A DNA stretch of 62,817 bases, filler included, from Collodictyon triciliatum (Eukaryota): assembly GCA_043381765.1 (NCBI GenBank). It is 9 parts of 9 records of this genome, joined end to end, with 100 filler letters (N's around TTAATTAATTAA, not from the genome) between each part and the next. Parts side by side here need not be neighbours in the genome. Positions count along the whole stretch, not along the records: positions 38,495 to 46,083 come from JBHJMP010003829.1; 8 more parts are not named here. One strand, written 5' to 3'. The notes beneath the pieces were generated by a model. That model did no database searches and had not been told where the DNA came from. It saw only the letters and a program-made list of their open reading frames with translations. How positions within the stretch are numbered: the stretch's first letter is position 1; the number at the start of each line of letters is the position of its first letter. Shown here piece after piece: positions 7,602 to 53,883 of this stretch. The position numbers and the translations under genes are program-made.

Positions 7602-7701
7602 NNNNNNNNNNNNNNNNNNNNNNNNNNNNNNNNNNNNNNNNNNNNTTAATTAATTAANNNNNNNNNNNNNNNNNNNNNNNNNNNNNNNNNNNNNNNNNNN
7701 N
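7602..7701. other. Artificial contig linker 44N-TTAATTAATTAA-44N
   Basis: Six-frame stop spacer inside N runs; the identical structure recurs about every 7.7 kb. Confidence 0.97.
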
Positions 7702-31831: not shown

Positions 31832-33740
31832 ATGTCCGACTATCTCACACCTGCCCAAGTGAATGCACTTTTGGAAGAAGTCCGGAAACTGTCTTACTCT
31901 CCAATTGCTGATATTGCCACTTTAAAACGATCCACAGAACTGAATCTCTGGAACAAGAATCTGTCATCTGTGCCGCCTGGTGTTTTTTTGTTGACTGGTC
32001 TGAAAGATTTGCGTCTTAATAACAATCTGCTGTCATCACTACCTGCACAGATATCGTGTTTGACTGGTCTTATAAAACTTTATGTTAATGGCAATCAGTT
32101 GTCATCACTACCTGCACAAATATCGTGTTTGACTGGTCTCAGTGTTCTTAATGTTAGTTACAATAAGCTATCATCACTACCTGCACAAATCTCGTGTTTG
32201 ACTGGTCTCACATTACTTTCTGTTCGTGATAATCCAGTATGATTTTATTCATATATTATATTATTATTTATGTTGAAAAGAAAAAATGACTGACAACGAT
32301 CCACACAGATGGAGGAGCTTCCAACACAGATCACAGCACTCACAAATCTGAAAGAACTCTGGATAAACGCTGGAGGGACACAAACCATAAAGAGAGCCCC
32401 TCGTGGCATCTCAAATCTCCCCTGCTGGAACAACACAGCATACAAAGACTACCAACACATCCGCGCTCTGCAGCTCTACGACCCCGTAAGCACACATCCA
32501 CCCCCAACCCCCACATACACAACACAGGACACAACTAACATAACTCTAGGTCGACGCCACCGCAGAAGCCATAAAAGCTTACAGACTTACCTGACACAAA
32601 CCTCCACTTACACAGGTTGCAGCCAGTCCCAACATCCAGTCGGGCATCTACGCAGCCCCAACCGGCCGCCTAGCCCGCGGCAACTACGCAGATCTCCTGA
32701 CAATGGACTTTGAGAAACGGGAGAACTTCCTGGGCAAGGGCGGCTTCGGGCTGGTCTTCAAGGTGCAGCTGAAGGCAGGCCTCTTCGCCGTGAAGCTTGT
32801 TGCGAACGCACAGATGCACGCCCTTGCCGACGGATCCGACCCGGAGAAGGAGGGCAACATGATGCTCGAGCTGCAGCACCCAAACATCCTGACGCTCTAC
32901 GACTTTGGCTTCCGCGGCAGAGACCTCCTCCTCGTGATGGAGTTTGCGGACGGCGGAGAGCTCTGCTCACTGGTCAAGAAGCAAGGGGCACTCAGCCTCG
33001 ACCTGACCCTCAAGTACGGGCTGCACATCATCCAGGGCCTCGTCTACCTGCACACGCGGCCAAGGCCCATCCAGCACCGCGACCTCAAGACCGAGAACGT
33101 CCTGCTTGTGAACGGCGTCGCCAAGCTGACGGACTTCGGCCTTGCAAAGAGCGGCGTCTCGGTCAACTCGGTCAGCAAGTTCGGCGGCTCCAAGAACTGG
33201 TCTCCGCCCGAGGCCTTCGACATCGGCAAGAGCATGGGGCTGCCCAGCGACGTCTACTCGTACGGCGTGGTGCTCTGGTCCATGGCGAGCGGTGAGTATC
33301 CGTACGAGGGTATGACGGACGGCCAGGTTGGCGCCTGTGTGACCAACGGTAAAACTCTCTCCATCCCCACAACCTGTCCTCCTAACCTCGCAGATCTGAT
33401 CCGCAAGTGCTGGGAGAGAAACTATGAGACTCGCATCAATACCCAGCAGGTCGAGGCCGAGCTCAAGGGCATCATGTCGAACCCCGCTGCTGTCCCGGCC
33501 ACTCCGAGGATGGGCTCCGTCAGCACCCCCATCGAAGACATGAACAACGCCATGCTCCTGGCCTACCTGGCTAGTAAGAATGCCAGTGAAGGTGTAATTG
33601 AGGCCTTTAGAAAGGTCAGAACTACTGGTGCAGAGATTGTTCTCATGGAGAAGGAAGACCTCTTGGCCAAACCGTTTGAGCTCCCACCTTTCCAGGCGCG
33701 CTTCGTTTTGAAACTCATCGAGGAGGCCAAGCGCACCTAA
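31832..33740 (+). CDS. LRR + TKL-like protein kinase + C-terminal SAM-like domain; exons 31832-32236, 32309-32485, 32616-33740 (568 aa)
   Basis: 23-aa LRRs (LTGLxxLxVxxNxLSSLPAQISC); kinase motifs GKGGFG, AVK, HRDLKTEN, DFG, WSPPE, SDVYSYG; helical SAM-like tail. Two phase-0 GT-AG introns join all parts in frame. No signal peptide or TM seen. Confidence 0.9.
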
Positions 33741-38394: not shown

Positions 38395-38494
38395 NNNNNN
38401 NNNNNNNNNNNNNNNNNNNNNNNNNNNNNNNNNNNNNNTTAATTAATTAANNNNNNNNNNNNNNNNNNNNNNNNNNNNNNNNNNNNNNNNNNNN
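38395..38494. other. Artificial contig linker
   Basis: 44N-TTAATTAATTAA-44N. Confidence 0.97.
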
Positions 38495-41400
38495 CCAAGC
38501 AAAGTGGACTGGAGCCGATTCCTGTCGCCAAGTTGACCGAGGGCGAAATTAAGGATGGTGTCGAATCCTTCCTCATTCGCTATGACAAGACCCTGAACGA
38601 AAAGCAAGCTGGAATGATTCTGGCTGACTTTGAAGATACTGGTGAGGCATTTTTAATAAGAGTATATATTTTGATAAAAATCTTATAAGAAATGATTTAG
38701 TTATTCTGATTTTTTTTATAGGCCATCCGCTCTATCTCCGCATCATTCTGGATGAAGTCAGGGTATTTGGTGTCTATGAGAAGCTTGATGAAATACTGAA
38801 AACTCTGCTTTCGACCAACGGTGTCATTGAGCTTTACACTCTCATTATCAAGCGCTGGCAACTGAAGTTTGACAGGAAAGGTGAGTATTGATTTGATATT
38901 TCAACAATAATGTAAAGAATCATAATTGCAATTTTTGTTGAATGATTCTATTTATCTACAGTGGCCTCAACTGATGGGAAAGAGACAATAAAGGTCGAGT
39001 ATGTCTCCCTCTCGATGAAGGTTCTCTTTGTCTCCCGCATCGGCCTGAGTGAAGGTGACTTGGATAATTACATGAAAGATGCGATTGGGACAGGATTCGA
39101 GCTTGCTGAATGGTTTGATTACTCTTAATAATAATAGAATTAATAGGTTTATCCTTTCTCATTTTTCTTTTTTATTTAACTTATCTTTCATTCATTCAAA
39201 CAGGAAATCCTTCTTCTTTACCCTCATCGAGTCGCTCTTCGTCCGCAATGGAAGGTTAGTGTTATTTTTCAATCGTTTTATTCGTTAATCGGTGTTTTCG
39301 GTATAATTTGATTTTGATATAAAGTCTTAATTATTGTCTATAATAGATACATGTACTTCCACCAGCTGCTGTTGGAGACCACCGAAAAAGTCTACTTCTC
39401 AGAAAAGAAAGAGATAGAAAAAACGCGCGAAAAATACGGAAGATGGCTGTTTGGCCAGTATTCTGAGTCTGCCGACGCAGATGAGGAGCTTGCTGCTGAA
39501 ATATGCTACCAGCTTCTGAAGGGCAGTTCGTTTGACTTGCTTGTGGAATACATGAAGCAAAAACATGTAATTTCTTTATAATTATTTCTTAATCGAGTAT
39601 TCTATACATAATGAAATGGTTTTCACTGATTAATTTAAATATTTCATAGGTTATCAGTATCATGCTCGGTGGTCGCTATCGCTACGAATTCTTTACATGC
39701 TGGAGAGCAATCAACGCAAGCGGAGCGGCAAACTACAAGGATGCTTATGGAAGCTTGGCTAAGGTAACTTTATTATTTAGTTTTATCTTTTTTGAAGGTG
39801 ACTACTTACACAATTTTAATATCAATCATGATTTATCTATTAATTATTATCGTTTTTTAGTCTTTGGATAAAGTGGGAGACCTGCTGGTTGGATTTTTCT
39901 TGGAGTCTTTTGAGAACTCGTTCTTGTTGTCTGTTCTGAATGTGCGTCTTGGAAAGCATCAGACGGAAGGTATGCAATTTATTATATTTTTGAAGAATTT
40001 ATGTCATGAATATGAGTTATATATGGATACGTTCAATAATTTATCAATTTACAGATGCGAAGGCTGCTGATTACCTGAATCTTGGTCGTGTCTACAAGAA
40101 CCTCCAAAAGTAAAAAAATAAAAAAAAAGCAATTATTATAAATAGGACATGAAATGGTGTTTATAATGCTAACTTTCTAAAATAAAATAAAAATAAACAG
40201 CTGGGCTGAGTCCATGGTCTACTACAAGAAATGCCTCGATTCAGCTGGGAAAAATGCAGATAATTTCCTGCGTATCGCCACCATTCATGAAGAGATGGGA
40301 ATCATCTACCAGCAACAGGATAAGTAAGGCTCGCTTTCAACTGTAAAATATTATGAATAATTTTTCAAAAAAGGAATTATTCTGATTTTCTTATGAAATA
40401 GAATTGATGAAGCTCTTGATGAATATAAGAAATCATTGGACTTGAGAGTCAAACAACTGGGCGAGAACGACTTGCAAGTGGCCCAATCACATGACCGCTT
40501 CGGAGACATCTACGCGAAGCAGTCAAAGTAATATTTGATCATTTATATTCGTTAATATTCTACTCTTTTCTGTAAATTTATTAATATTGATCAATTTTTT
40601 ATGATAGGAATGAGCAAGCTCTGGTTGAATACAAAAAGGCCATGGAAATTCGCCAGAAGAGAGTCGGAAACGAGCATCCTCTTGTCGCAACATCGTACCA
40701 GAACTATGGCCATGTCTCCCTGGCTGGGAAAAAGTAGCACATATTCATTCATTAAAGGCAGTTTTAAATACAGCTATGATAATTTTGAGAAAGATTAATA
40801 TGATTGAATCACCAAGGTATGAAGAGTCTATTGAAAACTTCGAGAAGGCGAAATCTATCCTTGAAAAATCGCTGGGAGCTAAGCATGCATCTGTTGCCTC
40901 GACAATCCAGTTTATTGCAAGCGTTCATCTTGCCAGTGGAAAGTTTGGATTTCTAAACTACAGATAATTTCATAAAACAATAATAATTTTCTATATCTTT
41001 CAATTTTAGCAAAAAGAATTTGGCATCATATCTTTCATTTGTATGGACTCTATTTGGGGTTAAAATATTATTATTTTAACTAATAAATATCAAATAACTA
41101 TCTTATATAGGAAAACTGAGGCCTTATCCTCATTAAAGCAATCGCTGGATATTTTTATGTCTACCCTGGGAGAAAATCATCCGAATGTTGTGGCTTGCTA
41201 TGAAATGATTGGAGACATCAGCCATGATTTGAAGGAGTATCTCTTTTTATTAATTATTATTACATATTTAATTGAAAAGAATAATTTATTTACCCTTATT
41301 CTCCTAGCTTTAAGGGTGCTTTGGAGGCCTATGCAAAGACGCTGGATATTCGCATGAGAACATTGGGCGAAAAGCATGCTGATTATGCTACTTCCCTGGA

Positions 41401-44400
41401 GAATGTTGGCAGAACAAACTTTGAGCTTCAAAGGTAAATTTCTCTGTTATATTAAAAATCGAATATTATGATTAGCAATCGCAAAATATACAAAAATATT
41501 CACTCATGTACATGATTCTAGTTCTGCTCAATGTGTTGATTGCTTCCAGAAGGCAGCTGCTATCAGAAAGGAGACAAATACAATCATGTCACTGAAAGAT
41601 GGCTCACAAATTGACAACATTATTCACTTCATGAAGGACAAGAAGGAGCATGAAACCGTCATTCAGCTTTACAAAACAGCTGCTGTTAGACATGGTGAAA
41701 AGTCCTCCTATGAAAACTGGGACTGCTGGGTGGCTTGTGAAAATTCGCACCAATACTGCAAAGAGAATAAGCTACATGAAAGTGGCGTGGCGTTCTGGGC
41801 TGAGATGAGAGACAGATTTGCTGATAAACTCGGATGGATTCATGAGAGAACAAGACTGGCAAATGTTTTTCTGTTGGATGTTAGCAAATATGTGGAGGAT
41901 TTCAACATCGATATGAAGGGCTTTAGCGTTTTGGATGTTGATAATGCTACTGTCCTTGAGAATGTTGGCCTAACAAACTTTGAGCTTAGAAGGTTAATCT
42001 CTCTATTATATTAGAAAAATCGAATATTTTTATTAATAGTTAAAAAATTTTTACACAAATATAACTAATGTGTACGCATTTAGATTGGACCAAGTCGTTG
42101 AATACTTCCAGAAGGCAGCTGCTATCAGAAAGGAGACACACACAATCATGTCACTGAAAGACACCCATCAGATTGAAAAGATTATCCACTTTATGAAAGA
42201 CAAGAAGGAGCATGAAGCTGTTATTCTGCTTTACAAAACGCTGATTCATTTATTCAACAAGCTTTATTCCATGCACTATTTTGGAATATGGAACAGCTGT
42301 GAGGAAATCAGTAAATTTTACAAGGAACTGAAGCAGCATAATGAAGCAGTGACATTTTGGACTGAGATGAGAGACATATTCGCTGATAAACTGGGATGGA
42401 TTCACCCCAGAACATTAAATTCTTGCGAATACTTGTCCGTTCATTCAAAAGAAACTGGAATCAACAAAGAGCATGTCGAGTTTACAAGAGTCAAGGAATT
42501 CATCAGTGAAACTCTTGATGATGCAAAACTAGATGAGGAATGGAATCGTGAGCAAATCATCGCATCATTATTCAGAATTGTCTACATGTCAAAGACTGAT
42601 GAAAGCAAATCAAAGGCTGCATCTGATGCAATCACACTTTTGAATTTCATGAATGTTTCTTTCGGTGGAATGGATTTATCAAACACCAAAATTCCGCATG
42701 CAAATCTCAGTAATTCAATCCTTGATGGTGCAAACCTCACTGGTGCCAACTTGGATGGTGTTGATTTCACGAATTCGATGCTTGGTGATTGTGTTTTTGA
42801 TGGCGCAAATATGAATAATGTGAAATTCGGAATTCCCTGTGATATATTAGATGGTCATACAAGTGCTGTCAATAGTGTTTGCAGTATTCAAGGACCGAAT
42901 GGTGAAAATTGGTTGGCTTCTGGGAGTTATGATGAAACAATACGTATTTGGGATGTAGCCACAGGAAACCAAATCAAAATGTTAAAAGGTCATACAGATG
43001 GTGTCTTGAGTGTTTGTAGTATTCAAGGACCGAATGGTGAAAATTGGTTGGCTTCTGGAAGTAAAGATAACACAATACGTATTTGGGATGTAGCCACAGG
43101 AAACCAAATCAAAACACTAAAAGAGCATACAGACTATGTCAACAGTGTTTGCAGTATTCAAGGACCGAATGGTGAAAATTGGTTGGCTTCTGGAAGTAAA
43201 GATAACACAATACGCATTTGGGATGTAGCCACAGGAAACCAAATCAAATTATTAGAAGGTCATATGCGGAGTGTCAACACCGTCTGTGCTATTCCAGGAC
43301 CAAATGGCGAAAAATGGCTGGTTTCAGGAAGTGATGATAAGACAATACGTATTTGGGATGTAGCCACAGGAAACCAAATCAAAACATTAGAAGGATATAC
43401 AGAATCTGTCAATAGTGTTTGCAGTATTCAAGGACCGAATGGTGAAAAGTGGCTGGCTTCTGGGAGTTATGATAAAACAATATGCATTTGGGATGTAGCC
43501 ACAGGAAACCAAATCATTACATTAGAAGGGCACACAGAACGTGTTACTAGCGTTTGCAGTATTCAAGGACCGAATGGTGAAAAGTGGTTGGCTTCTGGAA
43601 GTAATGACAGAACAATAGGTATTTGGGATGTAGCCACAGGAAACCAAATCAAAATAATAGAAAGTTATTGGGGTGCTGTCAATAGTGTTTGCAGTATTCA
43701 AGGACCGAATGGTGAAAATTGGTTGGCTTCTGGAGGTAATGATAATAGTCTATGTAGAATTCAAGGACCGACTGGTGAAGATTGGTTGGCTTCTGGAAGT
43801 CTTGATACAATACGTATTTGGGATGTAGCCTCAGGAAACCGAACACACAGTCTGCAAAAATCAGAAATGACTTACACACTAGGAAAATACCTTGTCAGGA
43901 AAGAAAAGCCAGACGAAGTCATCGCAGTGTTCAACAGAACAAGCGATGCGATGAACATGATTGACACCAACAGAATCCAAGATGCAAGGATAGTCCAGAT
44001 TATCGGCCCAAGAAAGCTGCAAGGTGGAAACATCCAAATCAGAAATGTCGCAGGATTGAGTCAATTCAATAAATCCCTCCTACTTTCTATCGGTGCTTTT
44101 TCTTTTGATGCGGACTTTGCTGCCTATTGTGAGCAGGGCAAGTTCACCAAGTTCCAGGCTCAAATGATGGCCGAGTGCTATGAGAACGGATGGGGTGTGG
44201 AGAAGGACACCGATAAAGCTTATTTTTGGAGATATGTTGCCTTTCCAAAGTTATCATTAGATTTTGATGGATTGAAACATGTAGCACAACAAGGCTCAAA
44301 GGATGCATTCAATATTTTGAAGGAAATGGGTGAAATGAAGAAAGATATCAAAAACGATCGGGGAAGAAAAATTGGTGAAAAACACAAATATCCACAAGCT

Positions 44401-45666
44401 GTTTCTATTGTTGCTGGATGCTATGAGAATGGGTGGGGTGTTGAGAAGGACACCGAGAAAGCAGCTGAATGGTTCGGAAAAGTTGAAAACTTTGAGAAAC
44501 TGAAGCAACTTGCGCAACAAGGCTCAAAGGGTGCATTCAGTATTTTGAAGGAAATGGGTGAAATGAAGAAAGATATCAAAAATGATCGGGGAAGAAAAAT
44601 TGGTGAAAAACACAAATATCCACAAGCTGTTTCTATTGTTGCTGAATGCTATGAGAATGGGTGGGGTGTTGAGAAGGACATCGAGAAAGCAGCCGAGTGG
44701 AATCTATTGGCTCTAAAAGCAGATGAAAACTTTGATAAACTGAAGCAACTTGCCCAACAAGGCTCAAAAGGTGCATTCTATGTTTTGAAAGAAATGGCTG
44801 AAATGAAGGAAGACATTTCGAACCGATGGGGAGACAAAATTGGTGAAAAACACATATATTCACATGCTGTTTCTATCGTTGCCGAATGCTATGAGAATGG
44901 GTGGGGTGTTGAGAAGGACTCTTCGTTGTCTCTTAAATGGGAAATATTCAATGAAAAGGCTGAAAACTTTGACAAGCTGAAGCAACTCGCACAACAAGGC
45001 TCAAAGGATGCATTCTATGTTTTGAAAGAATTTGCTGAAATCAAGGAAGATATCCTGGACCCGATGGGAGTCAAAAGTGGTAAAAAACACAAATATCCAC
45101 AAGCTGTTTATATTGTTGCTGAGTGCTATGAGAATGGGTGGGGTGTTGAGAAGGACATCGAGAAATCAGCTGAGTGGCTCGGAAAAGCTGAAAACTTCGA
45201 TAAACTGAAGCAATTTGCGCAACAAGGCTCAAAAGAAGCATTTAATGTTTTGAAAGAAATGGCCGAAATGAAACAATATGAGAGATACAAATATCCACAA
45301 GCTTTTTCTATTGTTGCTGAGTGCTATGAGAATGGGTGGGGTGTTGAGAAGGACATCGAGAAAGCTTATTATTGGTTCGGAAAAGCTGAAAGCTTTGACA
45401 AATTGAAGCAACTCGCACAGCAAGGCTCAAAAGAAGCATTCAATGTTTTGGAAGAATTTGCTGAAAACAAGGATGAATTTAGAAGATACAAATATCCACA
45501 AGCTTTTTCTATTGTGGCTGAGTGCTATGAGAATGAGTGGGGTGTTGAGAAGGGCACCAAGAAAGCAGCTGAGTGGTTCGGAAAAGCTGAAAACTTTGTG
45601 ATAGGAGATGATGAAGATGATGAAGATGATGAAGATGATGAAAGGAGACAGAAAGCCGCAGCTTAA
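38495..45666 (+). CDS. NLR-like multidomain protein, 5' truncated: NPHP3/TEP1-type STAND-associated helical region, TPR array, pentapeptide repeats, about 7 WD40 repeats, 7 Sel1-like repeats
   Basis: First exons give FLIRYDKTLNEKQ..GHPLYLRIILDEVRVFGVYEKLDE..LYTLIIKRW..VSRIGLSE. TPR exons span 40201-41433. Last exon 42084-45666 has AASDAITLLN..FGGMDLS..ANL pentapeptides, 45-aa WD40 units and AECYENGWGVEKD units. Confidence 0.85.
42847..43845 (+). repeat. Near-identical 135-bp WD40 coding tandem repeats (6 full + 1 with an internal partial duplication)
   Basis: GGATGTAGCCACAGGAAACCAAATC recurs every 135 nt (e.g. 42951, 43086). Confidence 0.92.
44160..45600 (+). repeat. Seven Sel1-like coding repeats of roughly 200-240 bp
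   Basis: TGCTATGAGAA(T/C)G..TGGGGTGT(T/G)GAGAAGG occurs seven times. Confidence 0.9.
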
Positions 45667-45840
45667 CAAGGTAAGTAGTATAATAAATGCATATTAATAC
45701 ATGTTCATTAACTATAATCATTTTAGATGGAGAGATTCTCTGGGTTTTTTTCAAGCAGACCTCCGCTTTTTTTCCAAAAGGACGCTCCATGAAAGCAGAA
45801 TAAAACCATAAAAATGAAAGCAAAGCTGATCAATCTCTCG

Positions 45841-45927
45841 TTTCCTATTGGTTTTGCACAAAAACCACGTTTCCCTTTGGTTTTGCACAAAAACCACGTT
45901 TCCCTTTGGTTTTGCACAAAAACCACG
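45841..45927. repeat. 3 x 29-bp tandem repeat with an internal imperfect palindrome
   Basis: TTTCC(C/T)(T/A)TTGGTTTTGCACAAAAACCACG at 45841, 45870 and 45899. Confidence 0.9.
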
Positions 45928-46083
45928 CGGATGGCAACCAAGCCGAGCTCAGGTGCGGTGAGCGCGAGCGAAACGCACAAGAGCGAGGTGCCTCAACTTG
46001 ACGACGAGAATGTGGTCTACGAGCACTACCGGACGCGACCGGTGGAGCGAGCAGCGGGGCTGCAGGAGAAGGGACTCTACCCG

Positions 46084-46183
46084 NNNNNNNNNNNNNNNNN
46101 NNNNNNNNNNNNNNNNNNNNNNNNNNNTTAATTAATTAANNNNNNNNNNNNNNNNNNNNNNNNNNNNNNNNNNNNNNNNNNNN
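46084..46183. other. Artificial contig linker
   Basis: 44N-TTAATTAATTAA-44N. Confidence 0.97.
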
Positions 46184-46299
<116 letters not shown>

Positions 46300-53783: not shown

Positions 53784-53883
53784 NNNNNNNNNNNNNNNNN
53801 NNNNNNNNNNNNNNNNNNNNNNNNNNNTTAATTAATTAANNNNNNNNNNNNNNNNNNNNNNNNNNNNNNNNNNNNNNNNNNNN
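53784..53883. other. Artificial contig linker
   Basis: 44N-TTAATTAATTAA-44N. Confidence 0.97.

What the first reader, a model, noticed from the sequence alone, without database searches (positions are those of the whole stretch)
40201..41433. Six consecutive one-TPR-per-exon symmetric phase-2 cassettes (123, 126, 126, 126, 126, 126 nt)
Seen: exons 40201-40323, 40402-40527, 40608-40733, 40817-40942, 41111-41236 and 41308-41433. Each encodes one 41-42 aa kinesin-light-chain-type TPR unit, and all are bounded by phase-2 GT-AG introns at the same repeat position. Any exon can be skipped, duplicated or swapped without a frameshift. Known: brown algal (Ectocarpus) NB-ARC-TPR and ROCO-LRR genes use repeat-per-exon modules proposed to diversify by exon shuffling. 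Inference: this lineage may have an independent combinatorial receptor-diversification system.
Basis: partly seen in the sequence, partly recalled or inferred. Interest (0 to 1): 0.78.

Follow-up and report, generated by a model that had tools for sequence, protein, structure and literature searches.

The report
Repeat-per-exon TPR array, NLR-like gene
A protist gene of the NLR-like sensor type puts each of its six TPR repeats on its own same-phase exon, as brown algae do, but its relatives keep the six repeats fixed in number and order, with no sign of shuffling.

Summary
Six exons (123 nt, then 5 x 126 nt) have AG/GT borders and phase-2 introns. Joined, they give an open 251-codon TPR array. 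They are exons 9-14 of a 16-exon, 1,936-codon gene that is cut at its 5' end. The gene encodes the C-terminal part of a STAND NTPase, six KLC-type TPRs, a linker, pentapeptide-like repeats, WD40 and Sel1.

The nearest relatives are 17 of 17 Diphylleia rotans (CRuMs) transcripts of a DUF4062-NACHT/nSTAND1-TPR family. The lineage is therefore unrelated to brown algae.

The combinatorial reading is not supported:
- The six units are only 5-37% identical to each other.
- Their introns are unrelated.
- Four cDNA-derived homologues have the same six units in the same order.
- None of 10 isoform pairs shows cassette skipping. Truncated isoforms instead end at the unit boundary, which suggests intron retention.

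Over evolutionary time, unit number does differ among paralogues. A 559-bp tandem duplication also made an extra phase-2 exon. The recently dynamic arrays are the intronless WD40 and Sel1 repeats.

This is a new member of a known kind, of modest interest.

The parts
38495..39969 (+). Seven upstream exons (38495-38641, 38722-38880, 38962-39112, 39204-39254, 39347-39566, 39650-39763, 39861-39969). They encode the C-terminal helical part of a STAND NTPase module. The 5' end is cut by the start of the piece. Intron phases are 1,1,2,2,0,0,1.
   Evidence: All introns are GT-AG and the frame is open. Identity is 44.8% over 330 aa to P0127 and 53.7% over 376 aa to P0125; both carry DUF4062 plus nSTAND1/NACHT. 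Three introns are at the same positions, and a fourth close by, in the metagenome contig L001.
40055..40109 (+). 55-nt exon encoding the first helix of the TPR array. It ends in phase 2.
   Evidence: A truncated D. rotans isoform (P0345) diverges at the homologous upstream intron position.
40201..40323 (+). TPR cassette 1 (123 nt, phase 2-2), the most divergent unit.
   Evidence: No Pfam hit alone. It aligns with unit 1 of the homologues.
40402..40527 (+). TPR cassette 2 (126 nt, phase 2-2).
   Evidence: TPR_12 E 5.6e-5.
40608..40733 (+). TPR cassette 3 (126 nt, phase 2-2).
   Evidence: TPR_12 E 1.2e-5.
40817..40942 (+). TPR cassette 4 (126 nt, phase 2-2).
   Evidence: TPR_12 E 1.1e-5.
41111..41236 (+). 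TPR cassette 5 (126 nt, phase 2-2).
   Evidence: TPR_12 E 3.4e-5.
41308..41433 (+). TPR cassette 6 (126 nt, phase 2-2).
   Evidence: TPR_12 E 1.7e-6.
41522..41992 (+). 471-nt symmetric phase 2-2 exon created by a 559-bp tandem duplication. Copy A runs from 41381 to 41939. Copy B starts at 41940, and similarity fades after about 42412. The exon is a second copy of the linker domain and ends in a copy of the tail of cassette 6.
   Evidence: exon-6 tail 45/53 identical, intron copies 63/91, exon 5' part 128/159. Introns 14 and 15 are the only similar pair among 105 (z 11.8). The D. rotans homologues have one copy.
42084..45666 (+). Intronless last exon. It encodes the linker domain, pentapeptide-like repeats, about 7 WD40 blades and about 7 Sel1 repeats, then an acidic tail and a stop.
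   Evidence: Pfam WD40 E 2.2e-60 and Sel1 E 1.4e-37. The pentapeptide-like repeats were read by eye; homologues carry PF00805 in their precomputed lists.
42846..43745 (+). DNA-level tandem array of WD40 units, 135 nt x 6.7 copies.
   Evidence: TRF 83% matches. Pairwise nt identity 78-90%, with amino-acid variation concentrated in a few columns.
44287..45598 (+). DNA-level tandem arrays of Sel1 units (periods 228 and 198 nt).
   Evidence: TRF 81-86% matches.

Best explanation
The six exons are the constitutive TPR sensor or scaffold array of a large NLR-like STAND NTPase gene. The domain order is: NTPase module, six KLC-type 42-residue TPRs, linker, pentapeptide-like repeats, WD40 propeller, Sel1 repeats. 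The organism is related to Diphylleia (CRuMs).

One two-helix TPR module sits on each symmetric phase-2 exon. This layout is most simply explained as the trace of an old expansion by tandem duplication of an exon-plus-intron unit. It was inherited by the whole gene family.

In the subfamily that holds this gene, the array has since been frozen at six units, each with its own conserved identity. It most likely works as one rigid superhelix, spliced in full. That last step is inferred, not shown.

The symmetric phase still makes the locus tolerant of unequal recombination. One 559-bp duplication that carried an intron with it added an in-frame exon, and paralogues differ in unit number. Change therefore happens on evolutionary time, in the germ line, not combinatorially within the cell.

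The fast-changing parts of this gene are the intronless WD40 and Sel1 arrays.
For: Shown directly:
- Exon borders, phase and open frame.
- TPR_12 hits at the same profile register in 5 of 6 exons.
- Units are 5-37% identical in amino acids and 28-50% in nucleotides.
- Among 105 intron pairs, only the pair from the 559-bp duplication is similar (z 11.8; all others at most 3.0).
- The TPR region is colinear with P0012, P0122, P0123 and P0124, with six units each. The same-position unit is the best match in 20 of 24 rows. Mean same-position identity is 34-41%, against 21-24% off-position.
- 0 of 10 isoform pairs of D. rotans family genes have an internal in-frame deletion.
- 5 of 7 truncation points within TPR arrays fall exactly on the unit start that corresponds to the window's intron site. 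The last shared residue in each is M, K or R, all of which have a codon ending in G, the first base of a retained GT intron. One more fits by pattern and one is 2 residues off.
- In-register units per paralogue range from at least 3 to at least 9. The maximum within-protein unit identity is 31-62%.
- The duplication is seen.
- The WD40 array (135 nt x 6.7, 83%) and the Sel1 arrays (81-86%) are DNA-level tandem repeats.
- Family identity rests.

Inferred: the origin by exon-plus-intron duplication, constitutive splicing, and a sensor role.
Against: - No RNA from the window's organism could be examined. The best run held 0.15 of the sampled words, and nothing was laid.
- The comparison proteins are only 43-50% identical over the aligned TPR-bearing stretch and come from another organism or from other genes. 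Variation among strains or among close paralogues is therefore untested.
- Short-read Trinity assemblies reconstruct repeat-cassette isoforms poorly, and only isoforms that share a 90% cluster were visible.
- TPR number does differ among paralogues, and a recent in-frame duplication exists at this very locus. The architecture is therefore not inert.
- The rest of the genome is not held, so orphan cassettes elsewhere cannot be excluded.
Confidence: 0.7

Rival explanations
1. Active combinatorial use. The symmetric cassettes are alternatively spliced (skipped or chosen) to give many receptor isoforms from one gene, as reported for brown-algal ROCO LRR exons.
For: All exons are phase 2-2, so any subset stays in frame. 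Brown-algal genes with 72-bp phase-2 LRR exons have up to nine splice variants (PMC11378527, passages). The 471-nt exon 41522-41992 is a redundant copy that could be skipped in frame.
Against: 0 of 10 isoform pairs in homologous D. rotans genes differ by an internal cassette; they differ by truncation at intron sites. Each unit has a conserved positional identity across four homologues, which suggests that all six are needed.
Confidence: 0.1
2. Ongoing germ-line exon shuffling of the Ectocarpus type. Cassettes are frequently exchanged, duplicated and lost among paralogues, which scrambles paralogy.
For: In-register unit number varies from at least 3 to at least 9 among family members. One paralogue has two units 62% identical. 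A 559-bp intron-containing duplication lies at this locus.
Against: Order is conserved and the same-position unit is the best match in 20 of 24 rows. No near-identical units exist within any of 13 proteins. Introns are unrelated. No decayed cassette was found in the introns or in the other window pieces; all tblastn hits outside the gene have E of 2.7 or more.
Confidence: 0.12
3. Independent intron gains. An intronless TPR array acquired introns separately at the same site of each repeat, for example at a recurring proto-splice site or by an introner burst.
For: The units are very divergent, so duplication of an exon-plus-intron unit cannot be shown directly.
Against: Eight consecutive introns share phase and repeat position. 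The introns share no sequence, so nothing suggests an introner family. The split codons differ (AA|C, AA|A, AA|G, GA|C, AG|T, AG|A), so there is no recurring insertion motif. The same boundary is used in distant paralogues.
Confidence: 0.06
4. Artefact or pseudogene. The pattern comes from a decayed or misassembled repeat region with no function.
For: The piece is a 7.6-kb fragment of a fragmented assembly, and the gene lacks its 5' end.
Against: There are 1,936 open codons across 15 GT-AG introns, 43-54% identity to expressed homologues over hundreds of residues, and strong exon/intron GC contrast.
Confidence: 0.02

Closest known systems
Ectocarpus NB-ARC-TPR genes with repetitive TPR exons (Zambounis et al. 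2012, PMC3341825; sections 11, 16, 17 and 19 read)
   Same: A STAND NTPase followed by a TPR array in which each 42-residue unit lies on its own 126-nt exon. It is a multigene family, and unit number varies among loci.
   Different: The NTPase here is of the DUF4062-NACHT/nSTAND1 kind in the homologues, not NB-ARC. The organism is related to Diphylleia (CRuMs), not a stramenopile. No scrambled paralogy and no inactivated cassettes in introns were found. The array is followed by pentapeptide-like, WD40 and Sel1 repeats. The intron phase and register of the Ectocarpus TPR exons are in supplements that could not be seen.
Brown-algal ROCO LRR exons (72 bp, phase 2) and Tetrahymena LRR exons (90 bp, more than 96% phase 2) (PMC11378527 and PMC6564038; passages read)
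   Same: One repeat per exon, exact exon length, symmetric phase-2 introns, and a junction codon shared between neighbouring exons.
   Different: Those are LRRs, in arrays with many near-identical young exons and documented shuffling or splice variants. Here the repeats are TPRs, there are only six, and they are old and fixed in order.
Nephrocystin-3-like DUF4062/NACHT-TPR proteins (Pfam NPHP3_N, TPR_NPHP3, TPR_10/12)
   Same: Homologues carry DUF4062, a NACHT/nSTAND1 P-loop and KLC-type TPRs. Weak NPHP3_N and TPR_NPHP3 hits were seen. The family is very large: 18,145 representatives at E of 1e-3 or less.
   Different: The NPHP3_N hit is below its cut-off (20.5 against 24.8 bits). The C-terminal pentapeptide-WD40-Sel1 extension and the variable N-terminal domains (RRM, CH) are not those of NPHP3.
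Fungal NACHT-WD40 NLRs with highly similar internal repeats (HET-E/HNWD type; recalled, not read here)
   Same: An NLR-like NTPase with a WD40 array whose units are 78-90% identical in DNA and vary at a few columns.
   Different: No sequence-level membership was tested. Here the WD40 array is preceded by TPRs and followed by Sel1 repeats. Hits to fungal NACHT-WD40 proteins cover only the WD40 part.

Membership tests
Repeat-per-exon STAND-TPR genes (Ectocarpus NB-ARC-TPR type) | Each 42-residue TPR unit is on its own 126-nt exon of length divisible by three | tested here: met
   Exons are 123, 126 x 5 nt, all phase 2-2. The definition comes from PMC3341825, sections 16, 17 and 19.
Repeat-per-exon STAND-TPR genes (Ectocarpus NB-ARC-TPR type) | NB-ARC nucleotide-binding domain upstream of the TPRs | tested here: not met
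   The window lacks the P-loop part because its 5' end is cut. Homologues P0127 and P0125 hit DUF4062, nSTAND1 and NACHT, not NB-ARC, at E of 1e-3 or less.
Repeat-per-exon STAND-TPR genes (Ectocarpus NB-ARC-TPR type) | Signs of exon shuffling: obscured paralogy of units, and inactivated cassettes in introns | tested here: not met
   The same-position unit is the best match in 20 of 24 rows. No cassette-like hits were found in introns or other pieces. Introns are unrelated.
Repeat-per-exon STAND-TPR genes (Ectocarpus NB-ARC-TPR type) | Splice variants with different cassette content | tested here: inconclusive
0 of 10 isoform pairs in D. rotans homologues differ by a cassette, but these are other genes and come from short-read assemblies.
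KLC-type TPR (Pfam TPR_12 / TPR_10) | Significant match to the Pfam models | tested here: met
   5 of 6 exons hit TPR_12 singly at E 1.7e-6 to 5.6e-5. Each alone is below the 30.1-bit cut-off, at 23.7-28.6 bits. The colinear array of homologue P0012 scores 126.4 bits. The joined window array could not be sent to Pfam.
STAND NTPase / NLR-like architecture | P-loop NTPase of the STAND class followed by a helical module and C-terminal repeats | tested here: inconclusive
   The helical module and repeats are present. Window residues 1-327 are 44.8% identical to P0127 668-993. The P-loop itself lies beyond the piece. Homologue P0125 passes the cut-offs for nSTAND1 (32.0 against 27.1) and NACHT (27.4 against 26.7).
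Symmetric phase-2 repeat-exon arrays (Tetrahymena 90-bp LRR, brown-algal 72-bp LRR) | Runs of equal-length exons separated by phase-2 introns | tested here: met
   Eight consecutive phase-2 introns, and five consecutive 126-nt exons after one of 123 nt. The comparison comes from passages.
Symmetric phase-2 repeat-exon arrays (Tetrahymena 90-bp LRR, brown-algal 72-bp LRR) | Clonal expansion: many young, similar exons | tested here: not met
   Units are at most 37% identical in amino acids. TRF finds no array over the TPR exons.

The most novel reading that the evidence does not exclude
Diphyllatea (CRuMs) evolved their own NLR-like sensor repertoire, independently of brown algae, fungi, plants and animals. 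In it, recognition arrays would be modular at two levels. First, TPR cassettes on symmetric phase-2 exons would change in number by intron-containing unequal recombination; the 559-bp duplication shows this is active at the locus, and some cassettes may be alternatively spliced. Second, intronless WD40 and Sel1 arrays would be homogenised and diversified by repeat recombination, with variation focused on a few surface columns.
Probability: 0.15. Interest if true: 0.65.

Novelty: new member of a known kind. Interest (0 to 1): 0.35.

Why it matters
The finding extends the one-repeat-per-symmetric-exon design of candidate immune receptors to a deep-branching, little-studied eukaryotic lineage related to Diphylleia (CRuMs). 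Until now it was known from brown algae (126-nt TPR and 72-nt LRR exons) and ciliates (90-nt LRR exons).

It also shows that the design alone does not imply combinatorial use. Here the array is old, and number and order are conserved. The recently changing parts of the same gene are intronless WD40 and Sel1 repeats.

Two things are useful for later work:
- A gene model for a DUF4062-NACHT/nSTAND1-TPR-WD40 family.
- A clean example of how an intron-containing tandem duplication adds an in-frame exon.

It does not open a long-standing question on its own.

Tried and rejected
- The joined TPR protein could not be sent to Pfam or any outside search. I scanned exon by exon with window references and analysed the spliced protein only inside scripts. 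As a result, no external homology search was made with the window's own array.
- No whole genome is held for the window, so genome-wide cassette counts were impossible.
- Sequencing runs: the best holder had 0.15 of the sampled words, and freshwater metagenomes had 0.05-0.08. None was laid, so these give no evidence of habitat or expression. Nothing was laid, which leaves RNA-level splicing of this gene untested.
- The linker domain (P0001 residues 1-235) found no relative among proteins of 664-2,114 residues.
- The first metagenome scan, with the two window copies of the linker, found nothing.
- The whole-exon search was swamped by WD40 proteins (7,365 hits). It was useful only for P0012. P0069 (Reticulomyxa filosa) matched only in the WD40 part, so my idea that the window is Reticulomyxa was dropped.
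- Rfam and tRNA scans of the window found nothing.
- A decayed cassette in the long 168-nt intron 40943-41110 was considered. The tblastn hit there is only read-through into exon 41111.
- An introner origin was rejected.
- Earlier findings of this scan: none.
- Teng et al. 2023 (Plant J) on brown-algal NB-ARC-TPR splicing is not held. I know it only from the reference list seen.


Full report
**Setting.** The window is not one stretch of genome. N blocks recur about every 7.69 kb, each as N44, TTAATTAATTAA, N44. The window is therefore a chain of separate pieces of about 7.6 kb. The finding lies in piece 38495-46083. No whole genome is held.

**Observation.** All six exons stand at the stated coordinates, with AG before and GT after, and lengths of 123, 126, 126, 126, 126 and 126 nt. 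Each begins with the last base of a split codon and ends with two bases, so every intron is phase 2. The joined sequence is open for 251 codons in that frame and carries stops in the other two. Exon GC is 0.40-0.48 and intron GC is 0.17-0.28. Exons 2-6 each match Pfam TPR_12 at E 1.7e-6 to 5.6e-5, always at profile positions about 19-22 to 54-59 of 77. Exon 1 gives no hit alone.

**Gene model.** Reading outward, I obtained a 16-exon model with 15 GT-AG introns of 71-168 nt and 1,936 open codons ending at a stop at 45666. The intron phases are 1,1,2,2,0,0,1 and then eight phase-2 introns in a row. The run starts after the 55-nt exon 40055-40109, which encodes the first helix of the array. It ends after the 471-nt exon 41522-41992. 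The intronless last exon (42084-45666) carries a linker domain, pentapeptide-like repeats, WD40 (E 2.2e-60) and Sel1 (E 1.4e-37). The 5' end, with the expected NTPase P-loop, is cut off by the start of the piece.

**Relatives.** A search with the last exon was swamped by WD40 proteins, but it found P0012, a transcript-derived protein of 1,849 residues. The spliced window protein is 47.7% identical to P0012 over 698 residues in one alignment. A search with P0012 residues 1-720 found six more clear family members. An exhaustive search with P0127 found 18,145 representatives at E of 1e-3 or less, and the closest form a distinct top group. All 17 of 17 proteins whose records I looked up are Trinity transcripts of Diphylleia rotans in EukProt. 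The best identity to the window gene is 49.7% over 708 residues (P0122) and 53.7% over 376 residues (P0125).

The window's organism is thus probably a diphyllatean or a near relative. It is not shown to be that species. P0127 and P0125 carry DUF4062 and a STAND P-loop; nSTAND1 and NACHT pass their cut-offs in P0125. Their N-terminal domains differ (RRM, CH). A 1,143-nt metagenome contig (L001, GC 0.31) encodes another member. Where it overlaps the window gene, three introns lie at the same positions and one lies close by.

**Is the array shuffled?**
- Within the gene, the units are 5-37% identical in amino acids and 28-50% in nucleotides. TRF does not see them as an array.
- Among 105 intron pairs, only one pair is similar, and that pair belongs to the duplication described below.
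- The TPR regions of the window protein and of P0012, P0122, P0123 and P0124 align colinearly. Each has six units, and there are no 42-residue gaps.
- The unit at the same position is the best match in 20 of 24 rows (6/6, 6/6, 3/6, 5/6). Mean same-position identity is 34-41%, against 21-24% off-position.
- Nothing like a cassette was found in the introns or in the other pieces of the window.

Number and order are therefore conserved in this subfamily.

**Transcripts of the family.** Ten isoform pairs from D. rotans were compared, and none has an internal in-frame deletion. The short isoforms are truncations with divergent tails. Of seven truncation points inside TPR arrays, five fall exactly on the unit start that corresponds to the window's intron site. 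One more fits by pattern and one lies two residues away. In the five exact cases, the last shared residue is M, K or R. Each of these has a codon ending in G, the first base of a retained GT intron. Another truncation matches the window's intron before exon 40055. I read these as retained introns. By that reading, an intron at this point of the repeat is a family-wide feature, in paralogues only about 36% identical to the window gene.

**Change over time.** In-register units per paralogue range from at least 3 to at least 9. The model misses the divergent first unit, so these are lower bounds. No protein has near-identical units; the maxima are 31-62% in 13 proteins.

At the window locus, a 559-bp tandem duplication copied the tail of cassette 6, the intron after it, and the start of the last exon. 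The 559 bp equal a 471-nt exon plus an 88-nt intron. The result is exon 41522-41992, again phase 2-2. Identities between the two copies are 45/53, 63/91, 128/159, then 42/110, then 50/60. The D. rotans homologues have one copy.

**Structure.** A model of paralogue P0198 is confident over most of its TPR array (pLDDT 84-96 over residues 301-511, 64-76 over 261-300). The unit starts (261, 303... 471) fall in the 3-residue turn before a 19-residue helix. Each exon-sized unit is therefore helix, short loop, helix. By Pfam's register, the exon starts at position 18-19 of the 42-residue TPR_10 model.

**What is dynamic.** The WD40 units (135 nt x 6.7, 83% matches) and the Sel1 units (228 and 198 nt, 81-86%) are DNA-level tandem repeats inside the intronless last exon. 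Six WD40 units are 78-90% identical in DNA. Four or five different residues occur at columns 5, 6, 27, 29 and 44, and most other columns are invariant.

**Known systems.**
- Ectocarpus NB-ARC-TPR genes have 124 TPR exons of 126 nt / 42 aa in 13 of 24 loci, with inactivated exons in introns and obscured paralogy (PMC3341825, sections 11, 16, 17 and 19).
- Brown-algal ROCO LRR exons are 72 bp and phase 2, with splice variants (PMC11378527, passages).
- Tetrahymena has about 50,000 LRR exons of 90 bp, more than 96% of them flanked by phase-2 introns (PMC6564038, passages).

The design is thus known. Here it appears in another supergroup, with another NTPase type, and without the signs of active shuffling.

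**Verdict.** This is a new member of a known kind. RNA from the source organism was not available, so exon skipping in this gene remains untested.

Noticed in passing
window 7602-7701, 15305-15404, 23005-23104, 30703-30802, 38395-38494, 46084-46183, 53784-53883, 61462-61561: The window is a chain of separate pieces of about 7.6 kb, joined by N44 + TTAATTAATTAA + N44. Neighbouring pieces need not be adjacent in the genome. The gene studied is cut at its 5' end by such a joint.
   Followed up: yes
window 41381-42412: A 559-bp tandem duplication (exon tail + intron + start of next exon) created an extra in-frame 471-nt exon. Inside it, a 110-nt block (41681-41790 against 42243-42352) is only 38% identical with no gaps, and it is flanked by blocks of 80-85% identity. 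The cause of this local divergence is unexplained.
   Followed up: partly
window 42846-43745: WD40 units are 78-90% identical in DNA. Amino-acid variation is concentrated at columns 5, 6, 27, 29 and 44 of the 45-residue unit. This resembles, from recall, the hypervariable WD40 repeats of fungal NACHT-WD40 genes. No selection test was run.
   Followed up: partly
window 44287-45598: Sel1 repeats form DNA-level tandem arrays of 228-nt and 198-nt periods (81-86% matches) at the end of the same exon. An (AGATGATGA)x4 acidic tail follows.
   Followed up: no
window 45839-46083: Downstream of the stop there is a 29-nt tandem repeat x3.1 (96% matches). After it comes an abrupt change to GC-rich sequence running to the end of the piece.
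   Followed up: no
window 31790-33740 (another piece): Long open frames with LRR-like repeats (31790-32242) and a protein-kinase-like frame (32595-33740), in a block of GC 0.53. This is far above the 0.25-0.44 of the rest of the window. The domain names are read by eye only.
   Followed up: no
L001 1-1143: A metagenome contig (GC 0.31) encodes another member of the same NTPase family. Three of its introns are at the same positions as in the window gene (EDTG|HPLYL, W|KSF, NGR|Y) and a fourth lies close by. It ends before the TPRs.
   Followed up: yes
window 16088-18688 and many other places: The assembly is rich in long microsatellites, including an (SQ)n-coding run of several hundred bases inside an 866-codon open frame, (TAA)n at 46184-46298, and CAAA-type runs.
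   Followed up: no
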